A DNA stretch of 64,000 nucleotides, from positions 6,561-70,560 of the forward strand of contig JBNGBT010000007.1 in the NCBI GenBank assembly GCA_049903315.1. Reading direction: 5' to 3'. Position numbers and translations under genes: made by a program. Positions 13,810 to 59,535 of the stretch are shown here, one piece after another; the first letter of the stretch is position 1, and each line of letters begins with the position of its first letter. Source of the stretch: Candidatus Cloacimonadota bacterium (GTDB lineage Bacteria; Cloacimonadota; Cloacimonadia; JGIOTU-2). The notes beneath the pieces were generated by a model. It saw only the letters and a program-made list of their open reading frames with translations. It ran no database searches and was not told where the DNA came from.

Positions 13810-13822
13810 AAAAAGAACAAAA

Positions 13823-16428: not shown

Positions 16429-16436
16429 TTTGTGAT

Positions 16437-16667: not shown

Positions 16668-16700
16668 TTCGGTGTTGCAAAGGTTGACAAATAAATACCT

Positions 16701-16729
16701 ATGACAATGTTCTTGGTCAAAATTATAAA
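16701..16729 (+). promoter_or_regulatory. Candidate sigma70-type promoter for rpsT
   Basis: ATGACA (16701-16706), 17-nt spacer, TATAAA (16724-16729); followed by RBS TAGGAG and the rpsT ATG at 16744. Confidence 0.3.
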
Positions 16730-16743
16730 TTTTAGGAGATTCA

Positions 16744-17004: not shown

Positions 17005-17012
17005 CATCTACT

Positions 17013-20000: not shown

Positions 20001-20918
20001 TATCCTTATGATTATCGCGATCCTAACACGGGAATCTGGGAAATCAGATATCTTGGTGTTGTTGAAAAGGGAAAAGCGATTTTTAAAGGACCCGTTTCAT
20101 TGCAGAATAATAATTTTGATTTTGGTTTCATTGTTCCTGATGATGTATATGGCGGAAATGAAGGGCAGGTGTTAAGTTATTCTATTGGCACATCTATTGA
20201 AAATGATGTGGATGTAGCGTTGAGGTATAATAAACGGAATAATCCCGATGATCATGAACTTATTATAAATGGGTATGCAGAATCCGAAAATGACGGACCA
20301 CCTCAGATCACTATGTGGTTGGATAATGATGCTTTTAAAAACGGAGATTACGTGTCATCATCACCTCTTGTATATATAGAAATTCTTGATAGCAACGGTG
20401 TAAATATCACTAATTATCCCGGTCATCGAATTTTATTAACAGTAGATAATGAGGATGAGTATAATATCACAGAATATTTTGTATATGATTTGGATTCTTT
20501 TATTCAAGGATCGATCGAATATCAGTTAGAGTCAATACCAACGGGCACCCACACTTTACGATTGGAGGTCTTTGATAACCTGAACGAAGTAGCATTTTAT
20601 GATGTTGAGTTTAAGATTAAAAGCCCTGATAATATTGATGTGCGGACTGTGTTGAATTATCCAAATCCTATGGATGACCATACATATTTCACTTTCTATC
20701 TTGATGGTGATGCTTCTGTTGACATTGAGATATTTACTGTGGCTGGCAGAAAGATTAAAACAATAGATGATTTAATACTTCGCACGGGTTATAATCAGGT
20801 GTTGTGGAATGGCAAAGATGAAGATGGAGATGTTCCCTCAAATGGCGTATATTTTTATAAATTGAAAGTCAATGGGAAGACGATTGATGAAATCTTTAAG
20901 ATCATTATTTTCCATTAA
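17013..20918 (+). CDS. Peptidase C25 (gingipain-like) family protein with T9SS C-terminal sorting domain, 1301 aa
   Basis: TTG start 8 nt after rpsT; signal peptide; candidate catalytic dyad context FYYIGHGGYD ... FFLAASCDIGLFD as in C25 peptidases; C-terminal T9SS CTD (YPNPMDD...IEIFTVAGRKI...GVYFYKL). Confidence 0.7.
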   Translation: MNKKRKSIIVLLVGIFVTCPLFGDSLISVLRSSLDNLTIEFTLPEYEIQSKNDFTYIECPELKREEIEGKIDLPYYSFLVGVPTNGNAQASIVSSVDSYFELTSPVTPFPKFIKDEQKGTYSLVYDIKQDIYSLETSKEILDISEPYLWRQQTVIKVVLHPFIVENEKLKIIKNLKLSFSLSGNKASRPFYDKNFEQVFQNTIINFDIAQHWSSDRELKKQDNPFSHADRWFKIPITENGICKLTKQKLSDAGIDVDNLDPDEIKVFNGGGYSQSRSVYSTLYPFEEVPVFITESGSDYTIYFYVRNTNGIELNDNYEQYFNPYTGENTYWLTYNTDLASRPNYHNQYSSDLTKRETFTTYSYSQHFEEDHVRSDPLMIEWYWQSFTGSGSSTKYFDFTVSELNTNEPQELTINFNYRPYTYYIKTYLNDVLLDDYVWTSSHVTYTGNFLQNGTNTLKVVETTSGSQTLYFDYYEIAYTKNLKMENNYLAFSLPQENVEYTVHVSNVANNELQIFKLRDFYQASKITNYDISGTSLSFNALSDTAGTQFCIVSNGGYIIPDVVEEKLEPLVYLNGTEIRSYLRDEITLANTEAIIITPEQFWDNAKELADVHYANDNLNVLVVKINDIYDEFAWGLVDVVAVRYFLNYGYDYYASIPDRQLSYVALMGDGTNDFRGYEQGSVEKNKILPFVEGTTASDDYFVYFITKLNPSLMIGRFPGYTDSQMEIMVDKTVDFISNPEFGYWRNRVILCADDFLKQGQNTETGHTTHAESCSRRIEANVELLKNYGIRYPLDEFQNRPEANEDLIKMINNGAGIFYYIGHGGYDVIGDEEYFRASRDITKLTNGNRLNFFLAASCDIGLFDSNTIESMAERMMYSKDKGSIAVFASARKGGYGPCSDVVSLVVNHTGESITIGQAVIASKGGGASKSYEKYLLFGDPMLRTALPAIRGNITIPEEFVDSLQARQTASLQGVIDTTGFLFDEVFNVAYDTDYIVKYPYDYRDPNTGIWEIRYLGVVEKGKAIFKGPVSLQNNNFDFGFIVPDDVYGGNEGQVLSYSIGTSIENDVDVALRYNKRNNPDDHELIINGYAESENDGPPQITMWLDNDAFKNGDYVSSSPLVYIEILDSNGVNITNYPGHRILLTVDNEDEYNITEYFVYDLDSFIQGSIEYQLESIPTGTHTLRLEVFDNLNEVAFYDVEFKIKSPDNIDVRTVLNYPNPMDDHTYFTFYLDGDASVDIEIFTVAGRKIKTIDDLILRTGYNQVLWNGKDEDGDVPSNGVYFYKLKVNGKTIDEIFKIIIFH

Positions 20919-27710: not shown

Positions 27711-28106
27711 ATGAAAAAAATAAAAATATTAATTGCAAAACCTGGCCTTGATGGACATGACAGGGGAGCGAAATTTGTTTCTCAAGTCCTCAGGAATGCC
27801 GGTTATGAAGTCATATATACAGGCATTCGTCAAACACCAGAACAAATAGTCACTTCTGCGATACAAGAGGACGTAGATTTTCTTGGAATGAGTATCCTGT
27901 CCGGTGCACATAATGTGCTCTTCAAAAAAGTTATGGATATCCTCCGAAATGAAAATACGGATGATATAATTGTGTTTGCCGGGGGCGTTATACCTGAGGA
28001 TGATATACCGTATTTGAAATCGCTGGGTATCAAAGAAATTTTCACGCCCGGAACCTCTTCGAAAAAAATAATTGAATTTATTGAAAACAATGCATCAAAA
28101 GAGTAA
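27711..28106 (+). CDS. Cobalamin (B12)-binding small subunit of acyl-CoA mutase
   Basis: 131 aa; DxHxxG motif (LDGHDRGAKFV) and Rossmann-like B12-binding fold signature. Confidence 0.85.
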   Translation: MKKIKILIAKPGLDGHDRGAKFVSQVLRNAGYEVIYTGIRQTPEQIVTSAIQEDVDFLGMSILSGAHNVLFKKVMDILRNENTDDIIVFAGGVIPEDDIPYLKSLGIKEIFTPGTSSKKIIEFIENNASKE

Positions 28107-28124
28107 TAAATTATAGGAGATCTT

Positions 28125-29504
28125 ATGGTTAAATATCCTGTTGAACCGTTTAAAATAAAGATGGTCGAACCCATTAAAATATTGGATAGAGAACAAAGGA
28201 TCAAAAAGATCAAGCAGGCAAAATATAATCTTTTCAATCTAAAAGCTGAGGATATTTTTATCGATCTTCTTACCGACAGCGGAACTTCTGCTATGAGCGA
28301 CTCACAATGGGCTGGTATCATGCGGGGTGATGAATCCTATGCAGGAAGCAGGAGTTATTTGCATTTCGAGCGATCAGTCAAAAATATCTTCGGTTATGAA
28401 AATATCATTCCAACCCATCAGGGAAGAGCTGCAGAAGCAATTTTATTTTCGACTATTCTCAAGCCCGGTGATTATGTGCCAAGCAATATTCATTTTGATA
28501 CCACTGAGGGAAACATACGCAATAATGGTGGAATTCCAGTGGCGTGTGTGATTGATGAAGGATTGGATCCAGCAAGTATTTATCCATTCAAAGGAAATAT
28601 CGATCTTAATAAATTACAAAAGCTGGTAGATGAAGTTGGCGTTGAGAATATCCCAATTGCTATGATCACAATTACCAATAACAGTGGGGGTGGTCAGCCG
28701 GTTTCGTTGGAAAATATCAAACAGGTTTATCATTTTTGGAAAAAACTGAACGTCCCGTTCTTTATTGATGCGTGCCGTTATGCAGAGAATGCGTATTTCA
28801 TAAAGATGAGAGAAAAGGAATACGAAAATTCATCAATTGAAGAAATTGCAAAAGAAATATTTGCGCACGCTGATGGTGCGACTATGTCAGCAAAAAAGGA
28901 TGCATTGGTGAATATTGGCGGCTTTATCACATTGAAAGACAGTGAGCTTGCTCAAAGACTCATAAGCAAACTCATTATCACAGAAGGTTTTAAAACCTAT
29001 GGAGGATTATCCGGACGCGATCTCGAGGCTGTTGCAATCGGTTTACAGGAAGGATTGAACGAAGATTACTTGAGATATAGGATCGAGCAAACTGCATATC
29101 TCGGTGAAAGTCTATTGGAGAAGGGCATCCCAATTGTACGCCCTCCCGGGGGTCATGCGATTTATATCGACGCACTCTCTGTACTTCCAGATATCCCTCA
29201 GAAATATTTCCCTGCACAAGCCCTTGCTATAGCATTGTACATTGAAGGTGGAATACGCGGAGTTGAGATTGGCAGTATCATGTTTGCATATAATGATGAA
29301 AAAACTGGAGAAACCATCTATCCCAAACTAGAACTTGTGCGCCTTGCAATACCGCGCCGTGTATATACGAGAGCGCATCTCGATTGTGTTGTTAAAACTG
29401 TGAAGAAAGTCATGGATAACAGACATCACCTGAAGGGATTACGTATAACTTATCAACCAAAATTACTCAGACATTTTACTGTTGAGTTAGAAGAAATTTC
29501 ATAG
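28125..29504 (+). CDS. tnaA: Tryptophanase / tyrosine phenol-lyase family (PLP beta-eliminating lyase)
   Basis: 459 aa; PLP-lysine context GATMSAKKDALVNIGG matches the TnaA/TPL family; RBS AGGAG. Confidence 0.82.
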   Translation: MVKYPVEPFKIKMVEPIKILDREQRIKKIKQAKYNLFNLKAEDIFIDLLTDSGTSAMSDSQWAGIMRGDESYAGSRSYLHFERSVKNIFGYENIIPTHQGRAAEAILFSTILKPGDYVPSNIHFDTTEGNIRNNGGIPVACVIDEGLDPASIYPFKGNIDLNKLQKLVDEVGVENIPIAMITITNNSGGGQPVSLENIKQVYHFWKKLNVPFFIDACRYAENAYFIKMREKEYENSSIEEIAKEIFAHADGATMSAKKDALVNIGGFITLKDSELAQRLISKLIITEGFKTYGGLSGRDLEAVAIGLQEGLNEDYLRYRIEQTAYLGESLLEKGIPIVRPPGGHAIYIDALSVLPDIPQKYFPAQALAIALYIEGGIRGVEIGSIMFAYNDEKTGETIYPKLELVRLAIPRRVYTRAHLDCVVKTVKKVMDNRHHLKGLRITYQPKLLRHFTVELEEIS

Positions 29505-29512: not shown

Positions 29513-30742
29513 ATGGGTAAAACAATTGTAGAAAAAATAATTCAGCTCCATTCTGAAGAAGAAGCCGTAGCTGGTAAGATAGTATGGATGAAACTCGATG
29601 TTCGTACTGCCCGTGATTTTGGCGGACCAAATGTGGTTAAAAATTTAGAAAAACACTATCCTGACGCAGAATTGCCGGACAAAGAAAACGTATTTTTTAC
29701 TTTCGATACTGTCGCACCTGCCAAAACAATTCCTTATGCAAATAATCAGCAAATTTGCCGTGAGTTTGCGAACAAGAACGGGCTCAAAGTTTATGATGTG
29801 GATGCAGGTATCGGCACACATATTCTTATGGAAAAAGGATTTGCACGACCCGGCAGAACTCTGGTCGGAACCGACAGCCATTTTAACATTCTTGGAGCAG
29901 TTAATGCTTTTGGACAAGGCATGGGTGATCAGGATATTGCATTCGGATTCAGTACAGGGAGAACATGGTTTGAAGTTCCGGAAACCATAAAAGTAAATCT
30001 TAAAGGCACATTCTCGTATCCTGCCACAGGGAAGGACCTTGTTCTCTACATTCTTAAAAGGATCGGCAGTAAAGGGGCACTTGGCAAATGTATTGAATAT
30101 TATGGTGAGTGCTTGCAGGATTTGACTTTTTCCGATTATATAACTTTGTGCAGCATGATGACTGAAATGGGTGGTATCGTTGCATTTCCCGAGCAAAATG
30201 CTCAAGTCAGTCAATGGCTGAAAGAACGAACAGGCGAAAATCTTCAATTCATTATTGCTGATAATGATGCTCAATATACTGAAGAAATTGAAATCGATGT
30301 TTCGGGATTACAACCTCAAATCGCATGCCCGCCAAAACCGGATAATGTTAAAGATGTTTCTGAACTTAAAGGATTAAAAGTCGGCTCAATTTTTGTGGGC
30401 TCTTGTACGAATGGTCGTATTGAGGATATGCGTTATCTTGCCGATATTCTGAAAGATAATCATGTTGCAGAAGGTATAATGCTTCGAGTCGTTCCTGCCA
30501 CACGAGAGGTTTATGGGCAAATGCTCAAAGAAGGTCTGATAGATATTCTTTTCAACGCCGGTGCTATTGTATCGAATCCGGGATGTGGCGGCTGTGCATC
30601 AGGACAGATTGGTATGACTGGTAAAGGTGAAGTTCAAATCTCTACATCAAATAGAAATTTCAAAGGCAAACAAGGTGATGGTGAAACCTATCTGGCAAGT
30701 CCTGTCACTGCAGCATTTGCCGCAATAAAAGGGGAGTTATAA
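29513..30742 (+). CDS. Aconitase-family hydro-lyase large subunit, archaeal-type LeuC/homoaconitase-like
   Basis: 409 aa; VGTDSHF, Fe-S cysteines in GSCTNGR and NPGCGGC, STSNRNFKGKQG; LeuC-like throughout. Confidence 0.85.
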   Translation: MGKTIVEKIIQLHSEEEAVAGKIVWMKLDVRTARDFGGPNVVKNLEKHYPDAELPDKENVFFTFDTVAPAKTIPYANNQQICREFANKNGLKVYDVDAGIGTHILMEKGFARPGRTLVGTDSHFNILGAVNAFGQGMGDQDIAFGFSTGRTWFEVPETIKVNLKGTFSYPATGKDLVLYILKRIGSKGALGKCIEYYGECLQDLTFSDYITLCSMMTEMGGIVAFPEQNAQVSQWLKERTGENLQFIIADNDAQYTEEIEIDVSGLQPQIACPPKPDNVKDVSELKGLKVGSIFVGSCTNGRIEDMRYLADILKDNHVAEGIMLRVVPATREVYGQMLKEGLIDILFNAGAIVSNPGCGGCASGQIGMTGKGEVQISTSNRNFKGKQGDGETYLASPVTAAFAAIKGEL

Positions 30743-30750
30743 ATAAACAT

Positions 30751-31977
30751 ATGAAGAACCTGTTTTTATTACTGCCACTGGTCATCGTTTTGTTTTCGTG
30801 CACACACAAAGACCAGGTTACCGAAATTGAAACTCCAGATCCCTACGATCATGTGTATGGAAAACTCAAAACCGGTAAATCACTTTATTCTATCCTTCTT
30901 GATAATGATATCTCCTATCAGGATGCATACAAAATCACAAAAGAGTTAAATACCCTTTATGATTTGAGATATTCACATCCAAATGATAGTTTTCATCTGA
31001 AGATTGATAGTCTCGGAGTTGTACAAATCATTGAATATTCTCCAAATAAAATTGATAAATATATTGTTGCCCGGGATTCGACTGATGAATTTGACGTATT
31101 TCAGGAGAAGCTTGTGCTTGAAAAAGATATCCTGTTACATACGACTATTCTGAAATCATCTCTCTATGAAACATTAGTTGATGGAGGATTAGATCCGCAA
31201 TTGGTTATGAAGTTCAGTGATATTTTTCAGTGGGATATTGATTTTTTTATTGATCCCCGCGAAGGTGACACCTGCTCTATAATATATGAAGCTTTCAGTC
31301 ATGATGGGGAAATCCTGAAATATGGAAATATTTTGGGAGCATCTTACCAAGGTAAACTCTTTGATCTCACTGCTTATTACTATGATAACGGCGGGAAAGA
31401 GCACGGATATTACGCCCGTGATGGTGAATCCTTCCAAAAAGCATTCCTGCGATCTCCATTAAATTACTCATACATCAGCTCATATTTTGGAATGCGGCTT
31501 CATCCGATAACAAAACAGGTATGGTTACACAGCGGTGTAGATTATGCTGCACCTCTTGGAACTCCTGTTGTCAGTTCCGCAGATGGAACAGTAATTCATA
31601 AAGGCTGGAAGGGTGGACATCCCACGCCAAAAGGAAACACCGGAGGTTATGGCAACACTGTGATGATCCGCCATACTAACGGTTTTAAAACACTCTATGG
31701 CCACTTGAATGCGTATGCCAGAAATCTCTACGTCGGCAAACGGGTGCTTCAGGGAGAAGTGATAGGGTATGTTGGCTCAACCGGTTGGTCCACAGGTCCA
31801 CACTTGCATTACACGATCTATCAGCATGATAGCCCAATTGATCCTCTCTCACTAAATAATGTTTCGGGTCCTCCCATCCCAAAAGAATATTTGGATGAAT
31901 TCATGGATTCTGTACATCATATTGACACACTCTTCAAAGAATCGAGAAAAACGTTTCTGCAATCAATTTTTGGATAA
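30751..31977 (+). CDS. M23 family metallopeptidase lipoprotein
   Basis: Lipobox LFSC; M23 motifs HSGVDYAAP, GYGNTVMIRH, HLHYTIY. Confidence 0.8.
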   Translation: MKNLFLLLPLVIVLFSCTHKDQVTEIETPDPYDHVYGKLKTGKSLYSILLDNDISYQDAYKITKELNTLYDLRYSHPNDSFHLKIDSLGVVQIIEYSPNKIDKYIVARDSTDEFDVFQEKLVLEKDILLHTTILKSSLYETLVDGGLDPQLVMKFSDIFQWDIDFFIDPREGDTCSIIYEAFSHDGEILKYGNILGASYQGKLFDLTAYYYDNGGKEHGYYARDGESFQKAFLRSPLNYSYISSYFGMRLHPITKQVWLHSGVDYAAPLGTPVVSSADGTVIHKGWKGGHPTPKGNTGGYGNTVMIRHTNGFKTLYGHLNAYARNLYVGKRVLQGEVIGYVGSTGWSTGPHLHYTIYQHDSPIDPLSLNNVSGPPIPKEYLDEFMDSVHHIDTLFKESRKTFLQSIFG

Positions 31978-32066
31978 AATGAACATGTTTGGAAAAATAG
32001 AGCATCTTAGGGATTTAATAAGCAAAAAATTTGACAGTTTATCAAGAGGAGCACGTTTTATCTATA

Positions 32067-32582
32067 ATGCAAAAGAATTGTAAAATAACTGGTAAGATTT
32101 GGCTCATTATTGACTATCAAAATACTCTTATTAATGACATTGACACTGATATGATATTTCATAATCAGTATCTTGCAATCACGGATATCAATAAAATGGG
32201 GCAATATACTTTTGATAATCTCGATGGTTGGAAAGATTTTTCACATAAAGCTCAGAAAGGTGATATCGTTGTAGTTGGGAAAAATTTTGGTGCAGGATCC
32301 TCACGGCAGCAAGCTGTAGATTGCTTTGCATCTCTTGGTATTCAAGCCATTCTCGCAGAATCCTTTGGAGCAATCTATAAAAGGAATGCTATTAACTCAG
32401 GATTACCAATCTTAACTATTACAGATATTGATCTTTCAAAACTATCACAACGGGAAGAGATCACTATTGACCTTAAAAAGGGAACTGTTTCAAATCCACA
32501 CATTCGGATTGAACCATTTTCTAAAGTACAACTTGATATTTATCAAGCAGGCAATTTGTTTGCTTTTGGCAAAAGAAATTAG
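32067..32582 (+). CDS. Aconitase-family hydro-lyase small subunit, archaeal-type LeuD-like
   Basis: KITGKIW N-terminus and GKNFGAGSSRQQAV ... AESFGAIYKRNAIN typical of short LeuD. ATG at 32067 preferred over the TTG at 32031 used by the listed ORF. Confidence 0.8.
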   Translation: MQKNCKITGKIWLIIDYQNTLINDIDTDMIFHNQYLAITDINKMGQYTFDNLDGWKDFSHKAQKGDIVVVGKNFGAGSSRQQAVDCFASLGIQAILAESFGAIYKRNAINSGLPILTITDIDLSKLSQREEITIDLKKGTVSNPHIRIEPFSKVQLDIYQAGNLFAFGKRN

Positions 32583-32617: not shown

Positions 32618-35422
32618 GTGAAAGTTTGTAGTAAATTTGGACTATTACTTTTGATGTTCATGCTGCTACTGGTGAGTTCTGCATTTGGGATATTGCTTCC
32701 CAATAATGAACCTGTTGAAGGGCTGAGAGTTGAAGATGTTCCTCATGATGATGGTGGAGGGCTCATGCTGAGCTGGAAGCCTCTCCCAAAAGAAAAGCGC
32801 ATCATTGAATACCGTATTTACCGCGGCTATACTCCCGATAGTTTATTCTATATCGGAAAGATCCCGGTAGATGCCAAAACAGGTGTTGCAGCTGATACAA
32901 TGAGATATATTGATCAGGGTTGGACATTTTTTGTCGATGCAACCTCACATGCCAAGCTGAAACATGAAAAGGGGCAGAAAAAAGGAACAATAGGAGCAGA
33001 AGTGCTCTTTCGTACCGTTCCTCGTGACATGAAAATCTATGGTCCTATGATGGATCATTATCGCATGCTTGCCGTTATCCCTGATAAAGAATATGTTTAT
33101 CACACGAAGATGAGAGAGTTCACTGATATTGATACAACTGAGGATGGCACTATTGATACGACATCTACGATTCTTGCAGGAATGAAACTTGAGCAGGTCA
33201 AGTATATTCTTACTAAACTGACAGTTGGTAAAGACTATTATTATGCAATTCAAGCACTCAATATGAACCGTAGTGCATCACCTCTTTCTGAAATAGCAAC
33301 TGGACAAACGGTCGATGATCCTCCAGAAAAATTAAAAGAATTCTATGCAGTTGCTGTGACCGATAAGGAGCAGCTTCAGTTCGAATGGTCGTTGCCAGTA
33401 TTTACTTCCGACCAAAAACAATTTAATATTTACCTTTATGATGAATTCGATGATCAGCATCTTATATTTACCCGTCCGGATGCATATCCATACACTCCCC
33501 AGACCAATGCTATTGTTCCTTTCGATTCTATCGCAGCACGTTTTGAAGCATTTAATTCCGCAAATATGAAGTGGTATAAATTCAATATCGGAGAACAGGA
33601 TAGACAGGATCAGGAAACCCTTGCAAAAGATGAACCTATCCCAGCTGAAATCATCACTTCTTCTATGCTGCCCAAACCTCCTATTCATTTCACCGTAAAA
33701 GATCAGCCAAATGATAAAGGTGATCAATTGCAGGTTTTCTTTGGATATCCATATTATGGTCTTTCAAAATTATCCTATAATGATGCTTTTACAAAACTGA
33801 CGGTTAATTATTTCATTACTGAAAATTCCATGTACGAAGTAGACCGACTTATCCTTTCAATCAATGGAATAACGAAAACTGAATATGTGCTTGATAATAA
33901 ACTCGATTTCAAGGTCAATTGGGATTATAGTAAGCCAATGAAGATCACAGGAAGTTTTGTCTGTAAACATAAAGGACAAGCACCCTTACCGGAAGATTAT
34001 ACAATAACTCATACCTTTATTTTTGATCAGGAAATGCAGGTGGTCCTCGTTGACACTCCTCCTAATGAGCAGATGAAGGAATTTGAAGATTATTACTTCC
34101 AAGTTTACAAGATAAATCATACAAGTGATGTGTATAGATATGCAAAACAGATGTCTTTTAGAGAGCGGGAATATATAGATAAAGTGTCATATGAAACCGT
34201 TCAATTTCGTGGAAGACCCCGTTTCTCTCTCGAAGAAAAGCGACTTTATTTCAGTACATATTTAAGCATTGAAAATTATAAAGATCAGTATCCCTTCTAC
34301 ACTCAAGCGCTCTATCTCGATCAACTCAAACAACAGGATGAAGAAATTAAAGAAGAAATCGCAAAACTACAAGCAGAGTTAGAAACCGAAACTGATAAAG
34401 TAGAGATAGAGAAAATTGAAGATCGTATAGATCTTTTCACTGATTATCTTAATGAAAAACCAGCGATCGTCAAAGAAGCAAATCTCTTAAATACTGATAA
34501 AGAAAGAATGAAAATGCTCTATGATGTTCATTGCAAAAATATTCGTTCTTTCAAATATTATATCAGAAAGACTGACGGACGAGGGCACTTTATCGATACT
34601 CCTGTATATACAGATCCTAATGGCGAACAGTATATCTCTCCCAAACAGAATTGGTTCAACACTGATGAAATAATCACTTTCATTGCAGTGCTTTTATTTG
34701 GAGCGCTCGTGTACTTTATGATCAAAGCAGCGCGCAAAGGAAAGAGGTTATATATCAGACCTATCGCAGGTATTCAGGAGATTGATAATGCGATTGGACG
34801 AGCTACAGAAATGGGAAGACCAATCCTCTTCGTTCCAGGTTTAAGCGGCATCAGTGACGTGGCAACACTTGCAGGATTAGCGATTCTTAGCAAAGTTGCG
34901 AAGAAAGCTGCTGAATACGACACAAAAATACTCGTTCCATGCCGCGATTTCATCGTACTTCCTATTGCTCAGGAAACTGTAAAAGAAGCACACTATGAAG
35001 CTGGTCGTCCTGATACGTATGATAAAAACAGCGTATTCTTCATCACACAAGCACAGTTCGCTTTTGTAGCTGGTGTGAACGGCATAATGATTCGTGAAAA
35101 AACAGCAACGAACTTCTATATGGGAATGTTCTGGGCTGAATCTCTTCTTATGACAGAAACCGGAAGTATGACAGGTGCAATTCAGATTGCTGGAACTGAT
35201 GCAGTCAATCAGCTGCCTTTCTTCATCACAACATGTGACTATACTCTTATTGGCGAAGAACTCTATGCAGCAAGCGCTTATCTCTCAAATCAACCGCTGA
35301 TTCTTGGTACTCTCAAAGCTCAAGACTATATGAAACTGATTATTGTTCTTACCGTGATCCTTGGCACTATCCTCTCAACTGTTCACCTTACGTTCTTTAT
35401 GAACTGGTTCCCGACCAAATAG
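32618..35422 (+). CDS. Hypothetical large envelope protein (signal peptide, FN3-like region, C-terminal TM segments), 934 aa
   Basis: GTG start with RBS AAAGGAG; signal peptide; hydrophobic segments near the C-terminus; no family recognised. Confidence 0.55.
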   Translation: MKVCSKFGLLLLMFMLLLVSSAFGILLPNNEPVEGLRVEDVPHDDGGGLMLSWKPLPKEKRIIEYRIYRGYTPDSLFYIGKIPVDAKTGVAADTMRYIDQGWTFFVDATSHAKLKHEKGQKKGTIGAEVLFRTVPRDMKIYGPMMDHYRMLAVIPDKEYVYHTKMREFTDIDTTEDGTIDTTSTILAGMKLEQVKYILTKLTVGKDYYYAIQALNMNRSASPLSEIATGQTVDDPPEKLKEFYAVAVTDKEQLQFEWSLPVFTSDQKQFNIYLYDEFDDQHLIFTRPDAYPYTPQTNAIVPFDSIAARFEAFNSANMKWYKFNIGEQDRQDQETLAKDEPIPAEIITSSMLPKPPIHFTVKDQPNDKGDQLQVFFGYPYYGLSKLSYNDAFTKLTVNYFITENSMYEVDRLILSINGITKTEYVLDNKLDFKVNWDYSKPMKITGSFVCKHKGQAPLPEDYTITHTFIFDQEMQVVLVDTPPNEQMKEFEDYYFQVYKINHTSDVYRYAKQMSFREREYIDKVSYETVQFRGRPRFSLEEKRLYFSTYLSIENYKDQYPFYTQALYLDQLKQQDEEIKEEIAKLQAELETETDKVEIEKIEDRIDLFTDYLNEKPAIVKEANLLNTDKERMKMLYDVHCKNIRSFKYYIRKTDGRGHFIDTPVYTDPNGEQYISPKQNWFNTDEIITFIAVLLFGALVYFMIKAARKGKRLYIRPIAGIQEIDNAIGRATEMGRPILFVPGLSGISDVATLAGLAILSKVAKKAAEYDTKILVPCRDFIVLPIAQETVKEAHYEAGRPDTYDKNSVFFITQAQFAFVAGVNGIMIREKTATNFYMGMFWAESLLMTETGSMTGAIQIAGTDAVNQLPFFITTCDYTLIGEELYAASAYLSNQPLILGTLKAQDYMKLIIVLTVILGTILSTVHLTFFMNWFPTK

Positions 35423-35436
35423 AAAGGAGTATCATA

Positions 35437-36060
35437 ATGAAAAGACAAATACCTTTATTTATAGTTTTGATACTTGGTTTACTTTTCGTAGCTCATGTAT
35501 TTATTCCAAGCAAGCTCTCTTCTGACTACCTTGACTGGTTCATGAAATGGACGAAAGTCATTGGTCCTTTCGCAATCGTACTTGGTGTATTCAGTCTTGT
35601 ACTTGTACACTATAATAAAATAAAACGTAAAGCTCCAAACTGGGGATATAGTATTGTGACACTTGCAGCGTTGGTGATAACAACATCGGTTGGCTTCATC
35701 TGGGGTATCCAGGAGGGTACTCCATATATGTGGATTTTTGAAAACTTCAATGTTCCACTCGGGGCGACTATGTTCTCATTGCTGGCTTTTTATATAGCAT
35801 CTGCAGCATACAAAGCGTTCCGTGCTCGATCTGTCGAAGCAACTGTGCTGCTTATCGCAGCTATAATTGTCATGCTTGGTCGTGTTTCCATCGGACAGGC
35901 AATTACTCATTGGATTCCGGACATTACAGAATGGATCCTTAATGTTCCTAATCTCGCAGCTAAGCGCGGTATTGCGCTTGGTGTAGGACTTGGTATGACT
36001 GCAACGTCCCTTAAGATCATGCTTGGGATTGAGCGATCATATCTTGGTGGAAGGGATTAA
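35437..36060 (+). CDS. Hypothetical polytopic membrane protein (207 aa)
   Basis: RBS AAGGAG; about five TM helices; 14 nt after the previous gene. Confidence 0.5.
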   Translation: MKRQIPLFIVLILGLLFVAHVFIPSKLSSDYLDWFMKWTKVIGPFAIVLGVFSLVLVHYNKIKRKAPNWGYSIVTLAALVITTSVGFIWGIQEGTPYMWIFENFNVPLGATMFSLLAFYIASAAYKAFRARSVEATVLLIAAIIVMLGRVSIGQAITHWIPDITEWILNVPNLAAKRGIALGVGLGMTATSLKIMLGIERSYLGGRD

Positions 36061-36069
36061 GGGGGTATA

Positions 36070-37023
36070 ATGAAATTCGCAGATAGTATTCAAAAAGTAG
36101 ATAGAAGAATAATCTATGGAATCCTTGCCATTGCAGTCATTCTCCCTCTGGTTTTCCGTCTTGGATTAAAGACCTATACAACCACACCTGTTGAAGACTT
36201 ATATCGTCACATTGACGCTGCTGCCGGTAAAGATGACATGGCAATCCTTATGGATTTCACACATGACCCGGGCGTCCTTCCAGAGTTATATCCTATGGAC
36301 CTGGCAATCCTCAGACATTGTTTTCAAAGGAATATCAAAGTATTCACGATCTCATTCCTTCCGCAGGGAGCAGCAATTATTCAATTGGCACTTTCTGAAG
36401 TAAAAGAAGACTACCCGAACATTGAAGCTAATGTTGATTATTGCAACTTCGGTTTTAAGCCATGGAGTTTGAAACTTCCTATTATGCTTGGTATGGGTGA
36501 TGATATTGCAGAAGCGGTTGAAACAAACAGTGAGGGACTCTCGCTTGAGAATCTTCCTATTATGCAGAATCTGAAAAATTATGATAACATACAAGTTGTT
36601 GTAGAGATTTCAGGTTCTTCAATGGGGCAGTTCTGGGTTACGTATGCACGCGCAAAATTTGGTGTTGATGTTGCAGTTGGTCTTACAGCGGTTATGGCTG
36701 CAGACGTGTATCCTTTCCTGCAGACTGGTCAATTTGTTGGTAGTCTTGGCGGGTTGAAAGGTGCCGCAGAGTATGAGCAGCTTGTAGATATCTTTGCGAT
36801 GAATGGTACTGAGTTCAGCAAGAAAAATGCACGTAATATGGCGTGGGTCGAAGCACAATATGAAGAGTTGCCGGAATTAGCAAAACTCTATAAGTATAAT
36901 AAAGCTCGTATCGGCATGGATGCACAGGCAATTGTTCACGTTCTTATCATTCTCTTCATTATTCTTGGTAATATTGGCTACTTTCTTGATCGACGTGCAC
37001 AGAAAAAAAAGTTTGGTAAATAA
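36070..37023 (+). CDS. Hypothetical membrane-anchored protein (317 aa)
   Basis: N-terminal TM, large soluble domain, C-terminal TM; 9 nt after the previous gene. Confidence 0.5.
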   Translation: MKFADSIQKVDRRIIYGILAIAVILPLVFRLGLKTYTTTPVEDLYRHIDAAAGKDDMAILMDFTHDPGVLPELYPMDLAILRHCFQRNIKVFTISFLPQGAAIIQLALSEVKEDYPNIEANVDYCNFGFKPWSLKLPIMLGMGDDIAEAVETNSEGLSLENLPIMQNLKNYDNIQVVVEISGSSMGQFWVTYARAKFGVDVAVGLTAVMAADVYPFLQTGQFVGSLGGLKGAAEYEQLVDIFAMNGTEFSKKNARNMAWVEAQYEELPELAKLYKYNKARIGMDAQAIVHVLIILFIILGNIGYFLDRRAQKKKFGK

Positions 37024-37033
37024 GGAGTAAAAA

Positions 37034-37633
37034 ATGACTGAAACAATTGGAATCTGGATTGCTGCATTTTTGACACTCTGCATGTTTTCTTTCCTGTACA
37101 AGGATAATCCTTTCTACAAATTTGCAGAGCATCTCTTCGTAGGCGTTTCGATGGGTTATTATATTCCTTATACATTTTATAATGCCTTCATACCGTACGC
37201 ATACGAACCTTTGTTCCTAAAAAAGGAATACATTCTTATCATACCCTTTATCATTGGTATCATGTATTGGTTCAGGTTTTCTTCAAAATATAGCTGGATC
37301 AGCCGCTATCCCATTGCGTTTGGCATGGGTATAGTTGGTATGGGTGTTCCAATGGGTATGCATGCAAATGTGCTGGTACAAATGAGGACTATGATGCTCC
37401 CCCTCAATAATATCAACATCATATTGATTTTTGTCGGAACGATCAGCATCTTATTGTATTTCTTCTTCTCCAAAGCCCATAAAGGGGTGTACGGAAAGTT
37501 CACGTCCATTGGTATCTGGTTCATGATGGTCGGATTCGGAGCATCCTTCGGTTACACTGTGATGGCTCGTATCTCGCTACTCATTGGACGAGTGCAATTC
37601 CTTCTTGGTGATTGGTTAGGATTGATAAAGTAA
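37034..37633 (+). CDS. Hypothetical polytopic membrane protein (199 aa)
   Basis: RBS AAGGAG; about five TM helices; 10 nt after the previous gene. Confidence 0.5.
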   Translation: MTETIGIWIAAFLTLCMFSFLYKDNPFYKFAEHLFVGVSMGYYIPYTFYNAFIPYAYEPLFLKKEYILIIPFIIGIMYWFRFSSKYSWISRYPIAFGMGIVGMGVPMGMHANVLVQMRTMMLPLNNINIILIFVGTISILLYFFFSKAHKGVYGKFTSIGIWFMMVGFGASFGYTVMARISLLIGRVQFLLGDWLGLIK

Positions 37634-37704
37634 AAATTCTCATTATATAAAAGCACAAAGATTATGATAGGATGTCATGGCTTTGTGCTTTTTCTTCTTT
37701 GAAC

Positions 37705-38736
37705 ATGAAAAGAAAAATAATTCAAATCGGATTTCTCATAATACTTCTCGTCGTAATTTATGTGAGGATCTCACACGAGAAAAGCAAACCAATTAAGGAA
37801 ACGCGTTTTGCACTCGGTACTTTTGTAACCATAGATATTCAAGAAAGAAATAGGCATAACAATGCAATTATTGATTCCGCATTTACGCTTATTCAAACCT
37901 TAGAAAAGCAGTTCTCACTTACGTATCTTAGAAGTGAGACCAACAAAATAAATATTTGTAAAGATTCAATACACATCTCAGAAGATATGCAGGACTTGCT
38001 GCAAATTGCACACCAGACAAGCAAGGAGACCGAAGGTGCATTTGATGTGACAGTAGGCAAGATAATATACATGTATGATTTTGTTGATGAAATCATGCCC
38101 ACAGCCGAAGAGATAGATTCTGCTCTTTTTTTTGTTGGACATGAGAAAATTGTCTGTAACAATGATAATTTCATCAAGGATGATCCAGAAATTTTCATTG
38201 ATCTCGGAGGAATAGCAAAGGGATTTATCGTTGATAAAGCTATTCGATATATAATAGAAAATGGCATAAATTATGCGGCAATAAATGCAGGGGGCGACCT
38301 CTTTGTGTTGAGTAATCCAGAGACAGAAACCTGGAAGATTGGCATTCAACATCCCCGAAATCAATCAGCATTATTTGGTTCGATCGAAGTCAAAGATAGG
38401 GCTGTAGTAACTTCCGGAGATTATGAACAATTTTTTATAAAAGAGGGAAAGCGTATTCATCACATTATCGATCCCAAGACCGGACTTCCTTCCTATAATT
38501 CTGTGAGTGTTACTGTTATAGCACGAAATGCTACAATTGCAGATGCATTATGTACAGCACTTTTTGTGATAGGACCAAATCTGGGCATCAAACTTGTGGA
38601 TCAGAAAGTTGATATCGAAGCGCTTATTATTTTTGAACAAGATGGGGAACTTTGCTATGTTATTTCAGATAATTTTGACAAATTTAACTTCACTTTGTTA
38701 GACTCAACTGCACTTTTTATAAAGGATTTGCAATGA
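37705..38736 (+). CDS. apbE: FAD:protein FMN transferase (ApbE family), membrane-anchored
   Basis: GGIAKGFIVDKA, NAGGDLFVL, VVTSGDYEQFF, IADALCTALFV; N-terminal TM anchor; ATG at 37705 chosen over the longer listed ORF. Confidence 0.8.
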   Translation: MKRKIIQIGFLIILLVVIYVRISHEKSKPIKETRFALGTFVTIDIQERNRHNNAIIDSAFTLIQTLEKQFSLTYLRSETNKINICKDSIHISEDMQDLLQIAHQTSKETEGAFDVTVGKIIYMYDFVDEIMPTAEEIDSALFFVGHEKIVCNNDNFIKDDPEIFIDLGGIAKGFIVDKAIRYIIENGINYAAINAGGDLFVLSNPETETWKIGIQHPRNQSALFGSIEVKDRAVVTSGDYEQFFIKEGKRIHHIIDPKTGLPSYNSVSVTVIARNATIADALCTALFVIGPNLGIKLVDQKVDIEALIIFEQDGELCYVISDNFDKFNFTLLDSTALFIKDLQ

Positions 38737-56127: not shown

Positions 56128-56490
56128 ATGGCAGATGTTATAGTAGAAGTTTCAAAAGATGATGCCCATGAATTAATGGACAGAACGGCAAAATTCATTG
56201 CTGAAAGACGCATGGGTTCTGCTGCGATTTTATTAATAGAATCACTAAAGCCGTTGAATTTTATTGCGAGCCAGATCCTCTATATGATCGCTCCTTTTGC
56301 AGAGCTCATATTTAAGCCGGAAGAATATCAAAAATTTGCATGTTCCCTTGAAAATAGAGATAATGTAAAATATCTTATCAATAAGATTGACGAAGAGGAT
56401 GCAAATTTCCATAGAGAGTTGAAAGCTGAAAAGAAAAAAGCAAAAGAATTGAAAAAGAAGAAAAAATTATTAAAAAATAAAGTGAAATAA
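56128..56490 (+). CDS. Hypothetical protein (120 aa, Lys-rich tail)
   Basis: Tightly packed between comF and the GlmL-like gene; no family recognised. Confidence 0.4.
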   Translation: MADVIVEVSKDDAHELMDRTAKFIAERRMGSAAILLIESLKPLNFIASQILYMIAPFAELIFKPEEYQKFACSLENRDNVKYLINKIDEEDANFHRELKAEKKKAKELKKKKKLLKNKVK

Positions 56491-56502: not shown

Positions 56503-58401
56503 ATGGCAAAAGAGCTACGTTCAATATTGGCTACCGACTGTGGTAGCACAACAACGAAAGCCATATTAATTAAGAAAATCGATGATGTATATCGTTTGAT
56601 CGTACGAGGTGAAGCACCAACAACAGTGGAAGCTCCCTTTGATGATGTGACAAAAGGTGTTCTGAATGCGGTCGAAGAAGTTCAGGACCTCGTTCATATT
56701 CGAGGAGAAAAAGATAGGTCTATCATCAAAGATGAAACAATAGAAGTACCTCAGGATGGCGATAAAGGTGTTGATGCATATGTGTCTACGAGCAGCGCCG
56801 GTGGGGGACTTCAAATGATGGTTGCCGGCGTCGTAAAAAGCATGACTGGTGAAAGTGCAGAACGTGCAGCACTCGGTGCAGGAGCTATTGTTATGGATGT
56901 GCTTGCAAGCAATGACAAGCGCCTTCCTCACCAAAGGATCGAAAGAATACGGCATCTGCGTCCCGATATGATACTTCTGTCAGGAGGTATCGATGGGGGA
57001 ACGACCAAGCATGTGGTCGAACTCGCAGAGATTATTGCTGCTGCAGATCCCAAACCCCGTCTTGGATCAGAATACAAATTACCAGTCATCTATGCGGGAA
57101 ACAAGGACGCTCGTGATGCAGTGAAAGAGACACTGGGGAGCAAGGTCGATCTTATCATAACAGATAATATCCGACCTGTGCTTGAAAGAGAAAATCTCGG
57201 ACCTGCGCGTGATAAAATACACGATCTTTTTATGGAGCATGTGATGGCTCAAGCGCCAGGATACAAAAAGCTTATGGCTTGGGCGAGGGCAGAAACAGAA
57301 AACGGAAAAATCGAAGAAGTGCCTATCATGCCTACACCTGGAGCTGTCGGAAACATCATGCAGACAATTGCGCGGCTGGAAAACATCGAGGTCGTGGGTG
57401 TGGATATCGGCGGAGCTACAACTGATGTCTTTTCGGTGTTCTCTGAGGATAAAGTATTCAACAGAACAGTAAGTGCAAACCTGGGAATGAGTTATAGTAT
57501 TTCAAACGTGCTCGCTTCGACAGGTATAAAAAATATTTTACGCTGGGTGCCTTTCGATATTCCGGAAACTCAACTGCGTAATATGATCAAAAATAAAATG
57601 ATCAGGCCTACCACGATTCCTTTCCTTGCAGAAGAACTTATGCTGGAACAGGCAATCGCAAAAGAAGCGCTTCGTCTTGCTTTTGAACAGCATAAAGAAT
57701 TTGCCGTTACTCTGAAAGGCACACAGAGAGAAAGAGAAATTTCTGAAGCATTCTCGCAATCAACATCAGGTGAAACAATTGTAAATATGATGACTCTTGA
57801 TATATTGGTTGGCAGCGGTGGTGTACTTTCTCACGCACCTCGAAGAAACCAGTCTGCGATGATGATGATCGATGCATTTCTTCCCGAAGGCATCACACGC
57901 CTTGCGGTTGATAGTATATTCATGATGCCGCAGCTTGGTGTACTGTCAACGATCAGTGAAAAGGCAGCACAAGAAGTATTTGAAAGAGATTGTCTTATCC
58001 ATCTAGGAACCTGCATCGCGCCAAAAGGTAAGTATAAACAAGGTAAAACAGCGCTTAATGCGAGGATCGAACTGCCAAATGGAGAGATCTACGAAGAGAG
58101 TATCCCGTTTGGAGAGATCGTCAGATTGAATCTTGGTGTTGGTGAAAATGCAAAAGCAATTTTAAAACCATCAAGTGGATGCGATCTTGGTACAGGGAAG
58201 AATACTGAAGTTGAAACTACGATTTCTGGTGGTGTTGTTGGTATTATTATTGATACTCGCGGAAGAGAATTGTATTTTGATGAAAAGCTGAACAAAGAAA
58301 CAATGAGCGCTCATATTCCATCGGATAATGCAGCACGAGTCGAATCGTTGAAAAAGTGGATGAAAGCTCTCGAAGTCTATCCCCAAGAATGGTTATCATA
58401 G
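56503..58401 (+). CDS. GlmL/MutL-family (hydantoinase-like ASKHA) ATPase, 632 aa
   Basis: RBS GGAGG; ILATDCGSTTTKAI and VDIGGATTDVFS phosphate motifs; paralog of the N-terminal two-thirds of 8650-11556. Confidence 0.75.
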   Translation: MAKELRSILATDCGSTTTKAILIKKIDDVYRLIVRGEAPTTVEAPFDDVTKGVLNAVEEVQDLVHIRGEKDRSIIKDETIEVPQDGDKGVDAYVSTSSAGGGLQMMVAGVVKSMTGESAERAALGAGAIVMDVLASNDKRLPHQRIERIRHLRPDMILLSGGIDGGTTKHVVELAEIIAAADPKPRLGSEYKLPVIYAGNKDARDAVKETLGSKVDLIITDNIRPVLERENLGPARDKIHDLFMEHVMAQAPGYKKLMAWARAETENGKIEEVPIMPTPGAVGNIMQTIARLENIEVVGVDIGGATTDVFSVFSEDKVFNRTVSANLGMSYSISNVLASTGIKNILRWVPFDIPETQLRNMIKNKMIRPTTIPFLAEELMLEQAIAKEALRLAFEQHKEFAVTLKGTQREREISEAFSQSTSGETIVNMMTLDILVGSGGVLSHAPRRNQSAMMMIDAFLPEGITRLAVDSIFMMPQLGVLSTISEKAAQEVFERDCLIHLGTCIAPKGKYKQGKTALNARIELPNGEIYEESIPFGEIVRLNLGVGENAKAILKPSSGCDLGTGKNTEVETTISGGVVGIIIDTRGRELYFDEKLNKETMSAHIPSDNAARVESLKKWMKALEVYPQEWLS

Positions 58402-58410: not shown

Positions 58411-59535
58411 ATGGCACAAGCATATACTCCCGGATTGACAATAACAAAAAGTATTATTCTGAGAAAAGATAGAATCCTTCCTCTCAAAGGTGAAGTTGTG
58501 GTAAAAGTAGGGGACAAGGTCACTGCAGATGACAATGTCGCAAAAACCGATTTACCAGGTGACGTTATCGCAATCAATATCGGCAATAAACTCGGAGTCC
58601 CGCCCTCTGATGTTTTGTCAAAAATGCAGAAAAAAGAAGGTGAAAAAATAAAAAAAGATGAACCTCTCGCAATGAGCCAGAGTATGTTCGGTCTTTTTAA
58701 ATCTATTGTGAAATCACCGATTACCGGCACAGTCGAGAATATTTCGAGTATCACAGGACAAGTTCTTCTTCGAGAACCTCCGGTCCCAATAACCGTGAAA
58801 GCATTTATTGATGGCGTCGTCAGCAAGGTTTATGAAAATGAAGGCGTCCAGATAGAGAATAAATCTGCCTATATACAGGGAATCTTCGGCATTGGTGGTG
58901 AGATTACTGGTGAAATCAAAGTTCTTGTTGATGGACCAGATGCCGAACTCCTGCCTGAACAGATTGATAATTCATGTAAGGATAAGATCATAGTGGGCGG
59001 TTCTATGGTGCGCCTGCCGGCTATTAAGAAAGCAATTCAAGTTAATGCAAAAGGCATTGTTATAGGCGGTATTGATGACCAGGATCTTAAAGACCTGCTT
59101 GGCTATGATATCGGTGTTGCAATAACCGGACATGAGGAGATTGGGTTGACTCTCGTTCTCACAGAAGGTTTTGGCCCAATTAAAATGGCTGCAAAAACGT
59201 ATGAAATATTAAAAGAATTCGAGGGTTATAAGACTTCCATGCACGGCAAAACCCAGATCAGAGCCGGTGTGATGAGACCAGAGATAATTATTCCAATTCC
59301 ATTTAAAGAAGAAGAGTTGAAAGCCAAAGAGAAAGAAATCTCAGGACTGAAAATTGGTAGTATAATTCGAATTATCCGAGAACCTCATTTCGGAGAGATC
59401 TGTGAAGTGACGGCACTTCCCGAAGAACTTGTTGTAGTTGAATCTGAAACAAAAGTGCGTGTACTCAAGGCAAAAATGGACGATGGCATTGAAGTTACAG
59501 TTCCACGTGCAAATGTTGAAGCTATTGAAGATTAA
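58411..59535 (+). CDS. Partner protein of the GlmL-like ATPase (homologous to the C-terminal third of the 968-aa fusion)
   Basis: RBS GGAGG; shares VLTEGFG and GKTQIRAGVMRPEII with the C-terminus of 8650-11556. Confidence 0.65.
   Translation: MAQAYTPGLTITKSIILRKDRILPLKGEVVVKVGDKVTADDNVAKTDLPGDVIAINIGNKLGVPPSDVLSKMQKKEGEKIKKDEPLAMSQSMFGLFKSIVKSPITGTVENISSITGQVLLREPPVPITVKAFIDGVVSKVYENEGVQIENKSAYIQGIFGIGGEITGEIKVLVDGPDAELLPEQIDNSCKDKIIVGGSMVRLPAIKKAIQVNAKGIVIGGIDDQDLKDLLGYDIGVAITGHEEIGLTLVLTEGFGPIKMAAKTYEILKEFEGYKTSMHGKTQIRAGVMRPEIIIPIPFKEEELKAKEKEISGLKIGSIIRIIREPHFGEICEVTALPEELVVVESETKVRVLKAKMDDGIEVTVPRANVEAIED

What the first reader, a model, noticed from the sequence alone, without database searches (positions are those of the whole stretch)
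32618..38736. Four-gene cluster of unrecognised membrane/envelope proteins followed by apbE
Four same-strand genes at 9-14 nt spacing, each with its own RBS: a 934-aa signal-peptide protein with C-terminal TM segments, a 207-aa polytopic protein, a 317-aa bitopic protein and a 199-aa polytopic protein. None resembles a family I can name. A membrane-anchored ApbE flavin transferase follows, which hints at an extracytoplasmic redox or assembly complex, although I found no [ST]GA[ST] flavinylation motif in the four proteins.
Basis: partly seen in the sequence, partly recalled or inferred. Interest (0 to 1): 0.55.

Follow-up and report, generated by a model that had tools for sequence, protein, structure and literature searches.

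The report
Conserved four-subunit membrane complex, function unknown
Four adjacent genes in this Cloacimonadota genome encode a membrane-protein complex that keeps the same gene order in at least six bacterial phyla but matches no characterised system; the flavin transferase gene next to it is an unrelated neighbour.

Summary
There are four same-strand ORFs of 934, 207, 317 and 199 aa, spaced 9-14 nt apart, each with a Shine-Dalgarno site, followed by an ApbE gene.

The ApbE link does not hold. A strong hairpin plus U-tract terminator sits between gene 4 and apbE. ApbE follows the cluster in only four or five of the closest relatives among 75 Cloacimonadota loci, and never in other phyla. None of the four proteins carries a flavinylation motif.

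The four genes form a real and ancient module. The order DUF6754 protein, 6-TM protein, TM-Rossmann-TM protein, 6-TM protein recurs in Cloacimonadota, Fermentibacterota, Planctomycetota, Zixibacteria and Bacillota MAGs (Hydrothermota is known from a protein name only), and it is often tandemly multiplied. Each family has thousands of members, all labelled hypothetical (one stray name aside). Only the first has a Pfam entry, and that is a DUF. AlphaFold models of the two bitopic subunits show generic Rossmann-like domains with no close PDB relative.

The recurrent neighbours elsewhere are a split GlmL/MutL-family actin-fold ATPase with a small protein I call e0, and M20 peptidases. The cognate e0-GlmL operon lies 19 kb downstream in this window.

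My best guess, at moderate-to-low confidence, is a new multi-subunit uptake transporter.

The parts
32618..35422 (+). P1, 934 aa. Signal peptide (about res 1-24); exported region with two Fn3-like 'DxPNDxG' modules (about res 24-69 and 354-375) and a probable coiled coil (about 567-640); TM 684-702; cytoplasmic Rossmann-like domain; C-terminal TM 907-925.
   Evidence: AF2 model of res 640-934
34640..35410 (+). DUF6754 (PF20539) region of P1 (res 675-931): TM, Rossmann-like alpha/beta domain, TM. This is the only part of P1 conserved in all phyla. Motifs: GRATEMG, AESLxxAE, GAIQIAGTD, QxPFF, CDYTLIGEExxAA.
35437..36060 (+). P2, 207 aa, six predicted TM segments, N-in/C-in by the positive-inside rule. 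No family in Pfam or NCBIfam.
   Evidence: 6311 homologues, all 'hypothetical' but one stray JGI name
36070..37023 (+). P3, 317 aa. N-terminal TM (conserved DRR before it), extracytoplasmic Rossmann-like alpha/beta domain, C-terminal TM with a K/R-rich tail. No family in Pfam or NCBIfam.
37034..37633 (+). P4, 199 aa, about six TM segments, N-terminus outside. Relatives carry an extra signal-anchor plus ectodomain in front of the core, and large insertions in the outside loop near res 124-127. No family in Pfam or NCBIfam.
   Evidence: (2154 50% clusters)
37649..37700 (+). Intrinsic-terminator-like hairpin (37649-37692) plus U-rich tract. It closes the P1-P4 operon.
   Evidence: -20.8 kcal/mol, z -4.63, 0 of 200 shuffles as stable; sequence. 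The consensus scan missed it because it looks only for short stem-loops (loop 3-8, stem pairs interrupted by the bulge here).
37672..38736 (+). ApbE flavin transferase gene (probable true start 37705). Listed because it is in the finding, but NOT part of the module.
   Evidence: Pfam ApbE 6.8e-75; adjacency in only four or five of the closest relatives
56128..56490 (+). e0, a 120-aa protein. It is a homologue of the small protein that precedes the GlmL-like ATPase next to the module in other phyla, and that directly precedes P1 in L085. Probable partner (inferred).
56503..58401 (+). GlmL/MutL-family (PF13941) actin-fold ATPase, split type ('MutLN'). 62% identical to the copy adjacent to the module in Planctomycetota L081 and 51% to L131. 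Probable cognate partner (inferred).
58411..59535 (+). 'MutLC', 374 aa, with a biotin-lipoyl/barrel-sandwich-hybrid-like region. It is the second half of the split GlmL-like protein. Probable partner (inferred).

Best explanation
P1-P4 are the four subunits of one conserved integral-membrane complex, expressed as a single operon that ends at an intrinsic terminator before apbE. Shown: the operon structure, the gene order conserved across phyla, the domain architecture, and the lack of any characterised relative. Predicted from sequence: about 16 TM helices in total. These are two 6-TM subunits with opposite orientation (P2 N-in, P4 N-out) and two bitopic subunits that each hold a Rossmann-like domain between two TM helices, one facing the cytoplasm (P1, DUF6754) and one facing outward (P3). 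Inferred, and what I commit to: the complex is a new kind of multi-subunit uptake transporter. P2 and P4 form the membrane pathway. The tethered outer domain of P3 binds or gates the substrate. The cytoplasmic domain of P1 couples or regulates, probably through contact with a dedicated GlmL-family actin-fold ATPase pair (e0-MutLN-MutLC), which in this genome is encoded 19 kb downstream. Neighbourhoods in Bacillota-type lineages suggest peptides or amino-acid derivatives as substrates. The Fn3-rich ectodomain of the Cloacimonadota P1 is a lineage-specific addition.
Against: No subunit shows sequence or fold similarity to any known transporter. No internal repeats were found in P2 or P4, and there are no conserved mid-membrane acidic residues that would indicate ion coupling. 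The neighbourhood evidence is heterogeneous: in Cloacimonadota and Fermentibacterota the flanking genes are unrelated housekeeping genes. The GlmL-like genes are not adjacent in this window or in most Cloacimonadota. GlmL relatives are otherwise tied to B12-mutase reactivation, not to transport. The M20 association may reflect only a few related lineages.
Confidence: 0.4

Rival explanations
1. An envelope-biogenesis or envelope-anchoring machine. The complex anchors or moves something in the cell envelope, and the long Fn3/coiled-coil ectodomain of P1 reaches into the periplasm.
For: Exported Fn3-like modules and a coiled-coil stalk in P1. An M23 peptidase is upstream in 27 Cloacimonadota loci. 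A second P1 paralogue plus a phosphatidylserine decarboxylase lies after P4 in about 17 Cloacimonadota loci. A MacB/FtsX-type permease follows P4 in 6 metagenome loci. Outside loops of P2, P3 and P4 carry variable insertions.
Against: The ectodomain is absent from the minimal modules of Bacillota and Zixibacteria (P1 257-271 aa). Up to four module copies per locus is unusual for a housekeeping envelope machine. The envelope-related neighbours are lineage-specific.
Confidence: 0.2
2. The membrane partner of a GlmL-type ATP-dependent chaperone or enzyme. The complex would hold or deliver a cofactor, for example a corrinoid on its Rossmann-like domains, or a substrate for the cytoplasmic e0-MutLN-MutLC system. 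It would not be a classical transporter.
For: Strong same-strand adjacency with the GlmL-family ATPase across four phyla. GlmL relatives are annotated as accessory proteins of B12-dependent mutases. Rossmann-like domains anchored by TM helices. B12-binding-domain genes lie near the module in the window (27711-28106) and in L131.
Against: P1C and P3 have no conserved DxHxxG-type or other cofactor motif. About 60% of the loci sampled lack GlmL-like genes nearby. One Rossmann domain is predicted to lie outside the cell. The window GlmL-like proteins score far below the GlmL equivalog cut-off (214 vs 475 bits).
Confidence: 0.2
3. One reading: an extracytoplasmic redox or flavoprotein complex matured by the neighbouring ApbE.
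For: ApbE lies 38 nt downstream of P4 on the same strand and is membrane-anchored. P2 and P4 resemble RnfA/RnfE in size, TM count and opposite orientation; that resemblance is from my own knowledge and was not tested by alignment.
Against: A terminator lies between P4 and apbE. ApbE adjacency occurs in only four or five of the closest relatives among 75, and never in other phyla (and the Pfam-labelled loci). No [ST]GA[ST] motif. No Rnf-Nqr or FMN_bind hit, even at E<=5 for 62 diverse P4 members. P2 and P4 have no conserved cysteines.
Confidence: 0.04

Closest known systems
Pfam DUF6754 (PF20539)
   Same: P1 residues 675-931 are a full-length, high-scoring member (2.8e-120).
   Different: The family is only a catalogued domain of unknown function. 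No paper in the searchable library mentions it. Its three obligate operon partners have no family entry at all.
SBP-dependent secondary transporters (TRAP, TTT)
   Same: Functional analogy only: a multi-subunit membrane part with no ABC ATPase in the module, plus an extracytoplasmic alpha/beta domain that could bind substrate.
   Different: No sequence or profile similarity. The outer domain is tethered by two TM helices. A second, cytoplasmic Rossmann-like domain is present. Subunit sizes and TM counts differ.
Rnf / Na+-NQR membrane subunits (RnfA/E, NqrD/E) with ApbE
   Same: Two roughly 200-aa six-TM subunits with opposite membrane orientation, and an ApbE gene next door in this window.
   Different: No Pfam Rnf-Nqr or FMN_bind hit, no flavinylation motif, no conserved Cys, and ApbE is not syntenic.
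GlmL/MutL family (PF13941; accessory protein of glutamate mutase)
   Same: The recurrent neighbour, and the window genes 56503-58401 and 8650-11556, match PF13941 at 1e-100 to 1e-125.
   Different: They score well below the NCBIfam GlmL/Or-4 equivalog cut-offs. They carry an extra C-terminal or split 'MutLC' part and a small e0 protein, and they sit next to membrane proteins rather than B12 mutases.
Universal stress protein / HUP-class Rossmann domains

Membership tests
Pfam DUF6754 (PF20539) | Match to the family HMM above the gathering score (27 bits) | tested here: met
   400.7 bits, E 2.8e-120, profile positions 1-257 of 257
Rnf / Na+-NQR type flavin-dependent membrane complex | RnfA/E-NqrD/E type polytopic subunits (Pfam Rnf-Nqr) | tested here: not met
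   No hit for P2 or P4 at E<=0.1. No hit in 62 diverse P4 relatives at E<=5.
Rnf / Na+-NQR type flavin-dependent membrane complex | A subunit with the ApbE target motif [ST]GA[ST] or an FMN_bind domain | tested here: not met
   The regex finds no motif in P1-P4. No FMN_bind hit.
Rnf / Na+-NQR type flavin-dependent membrane complex | Conserved linkage to apbE | tested here: not met
   ApbE follows P4 in only four or five of 75 Cloacimonadota loci (L001, L003-L005) and in no other phylum. A terminator lies between them.
ABC transporter | Walker A/B nucleotide-binding subunit and a recognised ABC membrane domain | tested here: not met
   No ABC_tran, BPD_transp or ABC2 hit in P1-P4. No GxxxxGK[ST] in P1C (sequence).
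TRAP / TTT SBP-dependent secondary transporters | DctQ/DctM or TctA/TctB membrane subunits and a DctP/TctC binding protein | tested here: not met
   No Pfam or NCBIfam hit. The resemblance is functional only.
Universal stress protein / adenine-nucleotide alpha-hydrolase-like fold (for the P1 cytoplasmic domain) | Fold match with significant score and a nucleotide-binding motif | tested here: inconclusive
ApbE family (fifth gene of the finding) | Match to Pfam ApbE above the gathering score | tested here: met
   252.5 bits, 6.8e-75. The NCBIfam equivalog cut-off is not reached (136.8 vs 498).
GlmL/MutL family (putative partner genes at 56503-58401 and 8650-11556) | Match to PF13941; equivalog-level match to GlmL | tested here: inconclusive
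   PF13941 at 1.5e-125 and 3.4e-100. NCBIfam GlmL scores 214 bits against a cut-off of 475. So they belong to the family but are not the characterised equivalog.

The most novel reading that the evidence does not exclude
The module, together with e0-MutLN-MutLC, is a previously undescribed class of membrane transport or translocation machine. It would be built from two oppositely oriented 6-TM subunits and two TM-anchored Rossmann domains on opposite faces of the membrane, and it would be driven or serviced by an actin-fold (GlmL-type) ATPase instead of a P-loop ATPase. It is widespread in uncultured anaerobic phyla.
Probability: 0.25. Interest if true: 0.85.

Novelty: categorically new. Interest (0 to 1): 0.68.

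Why it matters
Three of the four proteins belong to large families with no entry in Pfam or NCBIfam, and the fourth is only a DUF. These families have thousands of members and stay up to about 60% identical between phyla. Such conservation, with a fixed gene order across at least five phyla (a sixth by protein name only), implies a tightly constrained machine whose function is unknown. Cloacimonadota, Fermentibacterota and Zixibacteria are abundant in anaerobic digesters and sediments. If the module is an uptake system for peptides or amino-acid derivatives, it bears on how these uncultured fermenters feed. If it really couples to a GlmL-type actin-fold ATPase, that would be a new way of energising a membrane complex, and it would give a function to the wider GlmL family beyond B12-mutase reactivation. 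The work also removes a misleading cue: the ApbE neighbour.

Tried and rejected
1. ApbE/redox link: rejected on the terminator, the lack of synteny, the absence of the motif and the absence of Rnf/Nqr hits.

2. P1C and P3, or P2 and P4, as ancient paralogues, i.e. a duplicated two-gene unit with inverted topology. By eye the last beta-alpha unit and the C-terminal glycine motifs look similar and the orientations are opposite. However, BLASTP and hhalign with small and with large diverse alignments give probabilities below 6%, so the idea is unsupported.

3. Internal repeats in P2 and P4: none found.

4. Profile searches of P2, P3 and P4 alignments against PDB sequences: nothing.

5. PHROGs: nothing relevant.

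6. Pfam scan of 62 diverse P4 relatives at E<=5: no consistent family.

7. Insertions in long P4 relatives: no common domain, only EF-hand-like or HHH/CheB-like in single cases.

8. Fusions of P4 with other module members among 150 representatives: none.

9. A B12 motif (DxHxxG) in P3: the His is conserved only within Cloacimonadota.

10. PAP2 and acyltransferase weak hits of P2: the supposed motif residues are not conserved.

11. AFDB fold search: the library was not available.

12. Literature searches for DUF6754, PF20539, PF13941 and GlmL: nothing relevant.

13. My first ORF-overlap filter produced antisense artefacts in high-GC loci. I redid the analysis with priority given to HMM-labelled genes.
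Full report
**Observation**

The window comes from a Cloacimonadota bacterium; the best related loci are Cloacimonadota MAGs at 95% identity. The ORF table shows, on the + strand:
- P1, 32618-35422 (GTG start, 934 aa)
- P2, 35437-36060 (207 aa)
- P3, 36070-37023 (317 aa)
- P4, 37034-37633 (199 aa)
- an ORF at 37672-38736 that is ApbE (Pfam 6.8e-75)

The gaps between P1-P4 are 14, 9 and 10 nt, and each gene has a good Shine-Dalgarno sequence.

Hydropathy and charge distribution give these topologies:
- P1: a cleavable-looking signal peptide, about 650 exported residues, a TM helix (684-702) followed by a K/R cluster, a roughly 200-residue domain and a last TM helix (907-925).
- P2: six TM segments, N-in.
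- P3: one TM helix at each end, both termini K/R-rich and therefore cytoplasmic, so the domain lies outside.
- P4: about six TM segments.

No [ST]GA[ST] motif occurs in any of the four. One correction is needed: the C-terminal 257 residues of P1 match Pfam DUF6754 (PF20539, 2.8e-120).

**ApbE is not part of the unit**

Directly after the P4 stop codon there is a 44-nt hairpin (37649-37692). Its free energy is -20.8 kcal/mol with z = -4.6, and none of 200 shuffles was as stable. A U-rich tract follows it. The ORF-listed ApbE start lies inside this hairpin, so the in-frame ATG at 37705 is the likelier start.

Among 75 Cloacimonadota loci fetched with the DUF6754 domain, P1-P2-P3-P4 are present in this order wherever the contig is long enough; two loci have P4 before P3. 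ApbE, FolE2 and NIF3 follow only in L001 and L003-L005, the closest relatives. No Pfam-labelled locus from another phylum has ApbE nearby. The redox/flavin hint is therefore a local accident of gene order.

**What the module is**

All four families are large:
- DUF6754 domain: at least 8000 clusters at 90% identity
- P2: 6311
- P3: 4163
- P4: 2154 clusters at 50% identity with E<=1e-3

Apart from one stray JGI label on a P2 relative, every source name is 'hypothetical protein', 'DUF6754 domain-containing' or 'fibronectin type III domain-containing'. P2, P3 and P4 have no family in Pfam, NCBIfam or PHROGs, and 62 diverse P4 relatives give no consistent Pfam hit even at E<=5. No paper in the library mentions DUF6754 or PF20539.

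The same four-gene order occurs in:
- Fermentibacterota: L076-L078
- Bacillota MAGs: L080, L132, L133
- Planctomycetota: L081
- Zixibacteria: L084
- unassigned lineages: L082, L083, L085, L130, L131
- 44 metagenome loci, where the order appears whenever the contig is long enough

Source names also place P4 relatives in Hydrothermota. Conservation is striking. The DUF6754 domain is 60-65% identical between Cloacimonadota and Fermentibacterota, and the motifs GRATEMG, AESLxxAE, GAIQIAGTD, QxPFF and CDYTLIGEExxAA are nearly invariant across ten modules from distant lineages.

The minimal P1 is 257-271 aa and consists only of TM, domain and TM. The Fn3-type ectodomain of the window protein contains two 'DxPNDxG' modules, each matching the single module of the Fermentibacterota protein, plus a coiled-coil-like stretch. 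It is a lineage-specific addition.

**Structure**

The AlphaFold2 model of P1 residues 640-934 has pLDDT 75.7. The P3 model has pLDDT 88.1 and pTM 0.85. Both show a TM helix, a Rossmann-like (beta-alpha)5-6 domain and a C-terminal TM helix.

Foldseek finds nothing at E<=1e-3 for P1C; the best probability is 0.77, for a universal stress protein. Profile searches of P2, P3 and P4 against PDB sequences find nothing. The most conserved stretch of P1C is the part modelled with pLDDT <50. That is what one expects of a surface that needs partner subunits to fold, although this is an inference.

P4 relatives that carry an extra N-in signal-anchor plus a roughly 100-aa segment in front of the core indicate that the P4 core N-terminus lies outside. 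Large insertions in the loop near residue 125, some with EF-hand- or HHH-like motifs, are consistent with this. P2 is N-in. The complex is therefore predicted to have two 6-TM subunits of opposite orientation and two Rossmann-like domains on opposite faces of the membrane.

I tested whether P1C/P3 and P2/P4 are ancient inverted paralogues. Neither BLASTP nor hhalign supports this.

**Context and likely function**

Flanking genes in Cloacimonadota and Fermentibacterota vary and are mostly housekeeping genes. An M23 peptidase is often upstream, and in about 17 loci a second P1 paralogue plus a phosphatidylserine decarboxylase lies downstream.

Three patterns stand out in the other lineages.

1. 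*The whole module is often multiplied in tandem.* There are two copies in L081, L092, L093, L101 and L110, and four copies within 20 kb in L130.

2. *An M20 peptidase is adjacent in 7-9 loci.* In L132/L133 it starts 18 nt after P4. In L080 the module sits in a string of GntR regulator, saccharopine dehydrogenase, M20, module, amidohydrolase, peptide SBP, two permeases and a GlmL-like gene.

3. *The commonest neighbour is a GlmL/MutL-family (PF13941) actin-fold ATPase.* It is either fused (about 950-1050 aa) or split into MutLN (about 600 aa) and MutLC (about 375 aa, with a barrel-sandwich-hybrid-like region). A small protein, e0, often precedes it. It is usually on the same strand and close to the module, often directly before P1 or after P4.
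   - It occurs in 21 of 57 non-Cloacimonadota loci, many of which are short contigs, and in 7 of 15 loci with at least 3 kb on both sides.
   - It also occurs next to the module in three Cloacimonadota loci.
   - In L085, e0 directly precedes P1.
   - The window carries the complete split set at 56128-59535 (e0, MutLN, MutLC). Its MutLN is 62% identical to the module-adjacent copy of the Planctomycetota locus and 51% identical to that of L131, which is as conserved as the module itself.
   - A second, fused GlmL-like gene (8650-11556, minus strand) follows two CUT1-type ABC permease genes.

Putting this together, I am confident (about 0.85) that P1-P4 form one membrane complex that is independent of ApbE. 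For its function I commit, at about 0.4, to a new multi-subunit uptake transporter:
- P2 and P4 form the pathway.
- P3 is a tethered outer binding or gating domain.
- The P1 cytoplasmic domain is the coupling or regulatory element, probably working with the GlmL-type ATPase.
- Peptides or amino-acid derivatives are plausible substrates.

The arguments are the all-membrane architecture, the tandem paralogue expansion, and the catabolic and transport neighbourhoods. The weaknesses are that no subunit resembles a known transporter, that P2 and P4 could not be modelled, and that the neighbourhood evidence is heterogeneous.

The rivals are an envelope machine (0.2), a membrane partner of a GlmL-type chaperone or enzyme system (0.2) and the ApbE-dependent redox complex (0.04).

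**Novelty and score**

Nothing tested places the module in any characterised system, and only one subunit has even a DUF entry. I rate it categorically new, with a caveat: a future fold match of P2/P4 to a known transporter superfamily would lower this to a new variant. I score interest at 0.68. The conservation, breadth and complete lack of annotation would surprise a specialist, and the GlmL link gives a concrete, testable lead. The function is not established here.

Noticed in passing
window 8650-13526 (minus strand): Three-gene string: two CUT1-type ABC permease genes (UgpA/UgpE-like, BPD_transp_1) followed by a fused 968-aa GlmL/MutL-family protein. No binding protein or ABC ATPase lies in the string. 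GlmL-like genes also sit next to SBP/permease genes without an ATPase in L080 and L081.
   Followed up: partly
window 56128-59535 (+): e0 (120 aa, no family), MutLN (632 aa, PF13941) and MutLC (374 aa) form their own operon after purine-synthesis genes. Orthologues (51-62% identity) lie directly next to the DUF6754 module in other phyla.
   Followed up: yes
window 29513-32582 (+): The large (aconitase-family, 409 aa) and small (LeuD/HacB-like, 183 aa) subunits of a homoaconitase/isopropylmalate-isomerase-type enzyme are separated by an M23 peptidase gene (30751-31977). In other Cloacimonadota the M23 gene lies directly upstream of P1.
   Followed up: partly
window 37649-37700 (+): Strong terminator hairpin whose 3' arm overlaps the first ATG of the ApbE ORF. 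The ApbE start is probably 37705, and no Shine-Dalgarno site precedes it.
   Followed up: yes
L130 (NCBI GCA_028280325.1 contig), 7745-20347: Four complete copies of the four-gene module within 13 kb, one on the + strand and three in tandem on the - strand. An M20/M28 peptidase and an epimerase are nearby.
   Followed up: partly
about 17 Cloacimonadota loci (e.g. L034 13074-15932; L052 9743-13854) and L076-L078: A second, solo DUF6754 paralogue without its own P2-P4. In Cloacimonadota it comes right after P4 and is followed by a phosphatidylserine decarboxylase gene. In Fermentibacterota it is flanked by GNAT acetyltransferase genes. This suggests exchangeable P1 subunits on one P2-P3-P4 core.
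   Followed up: partly
window 43629-45980 (minus strand): A 783-aa secreted protein with a weak Por/T9SS C-terminal sorting domain (26.7 bits, just under the cut-off of 27). This is typical of FCB-group surface proteins.
   Followed up: no
window 27711-29504 (+): A stand-alone B12-binding-domain protein (131 aa) directly followed by a beta-eliminating lyase (tryptophanase/tyrosine phenol-lyase type). A beta-eliminating lyase also lies near the module in L085.
   Followed up: no
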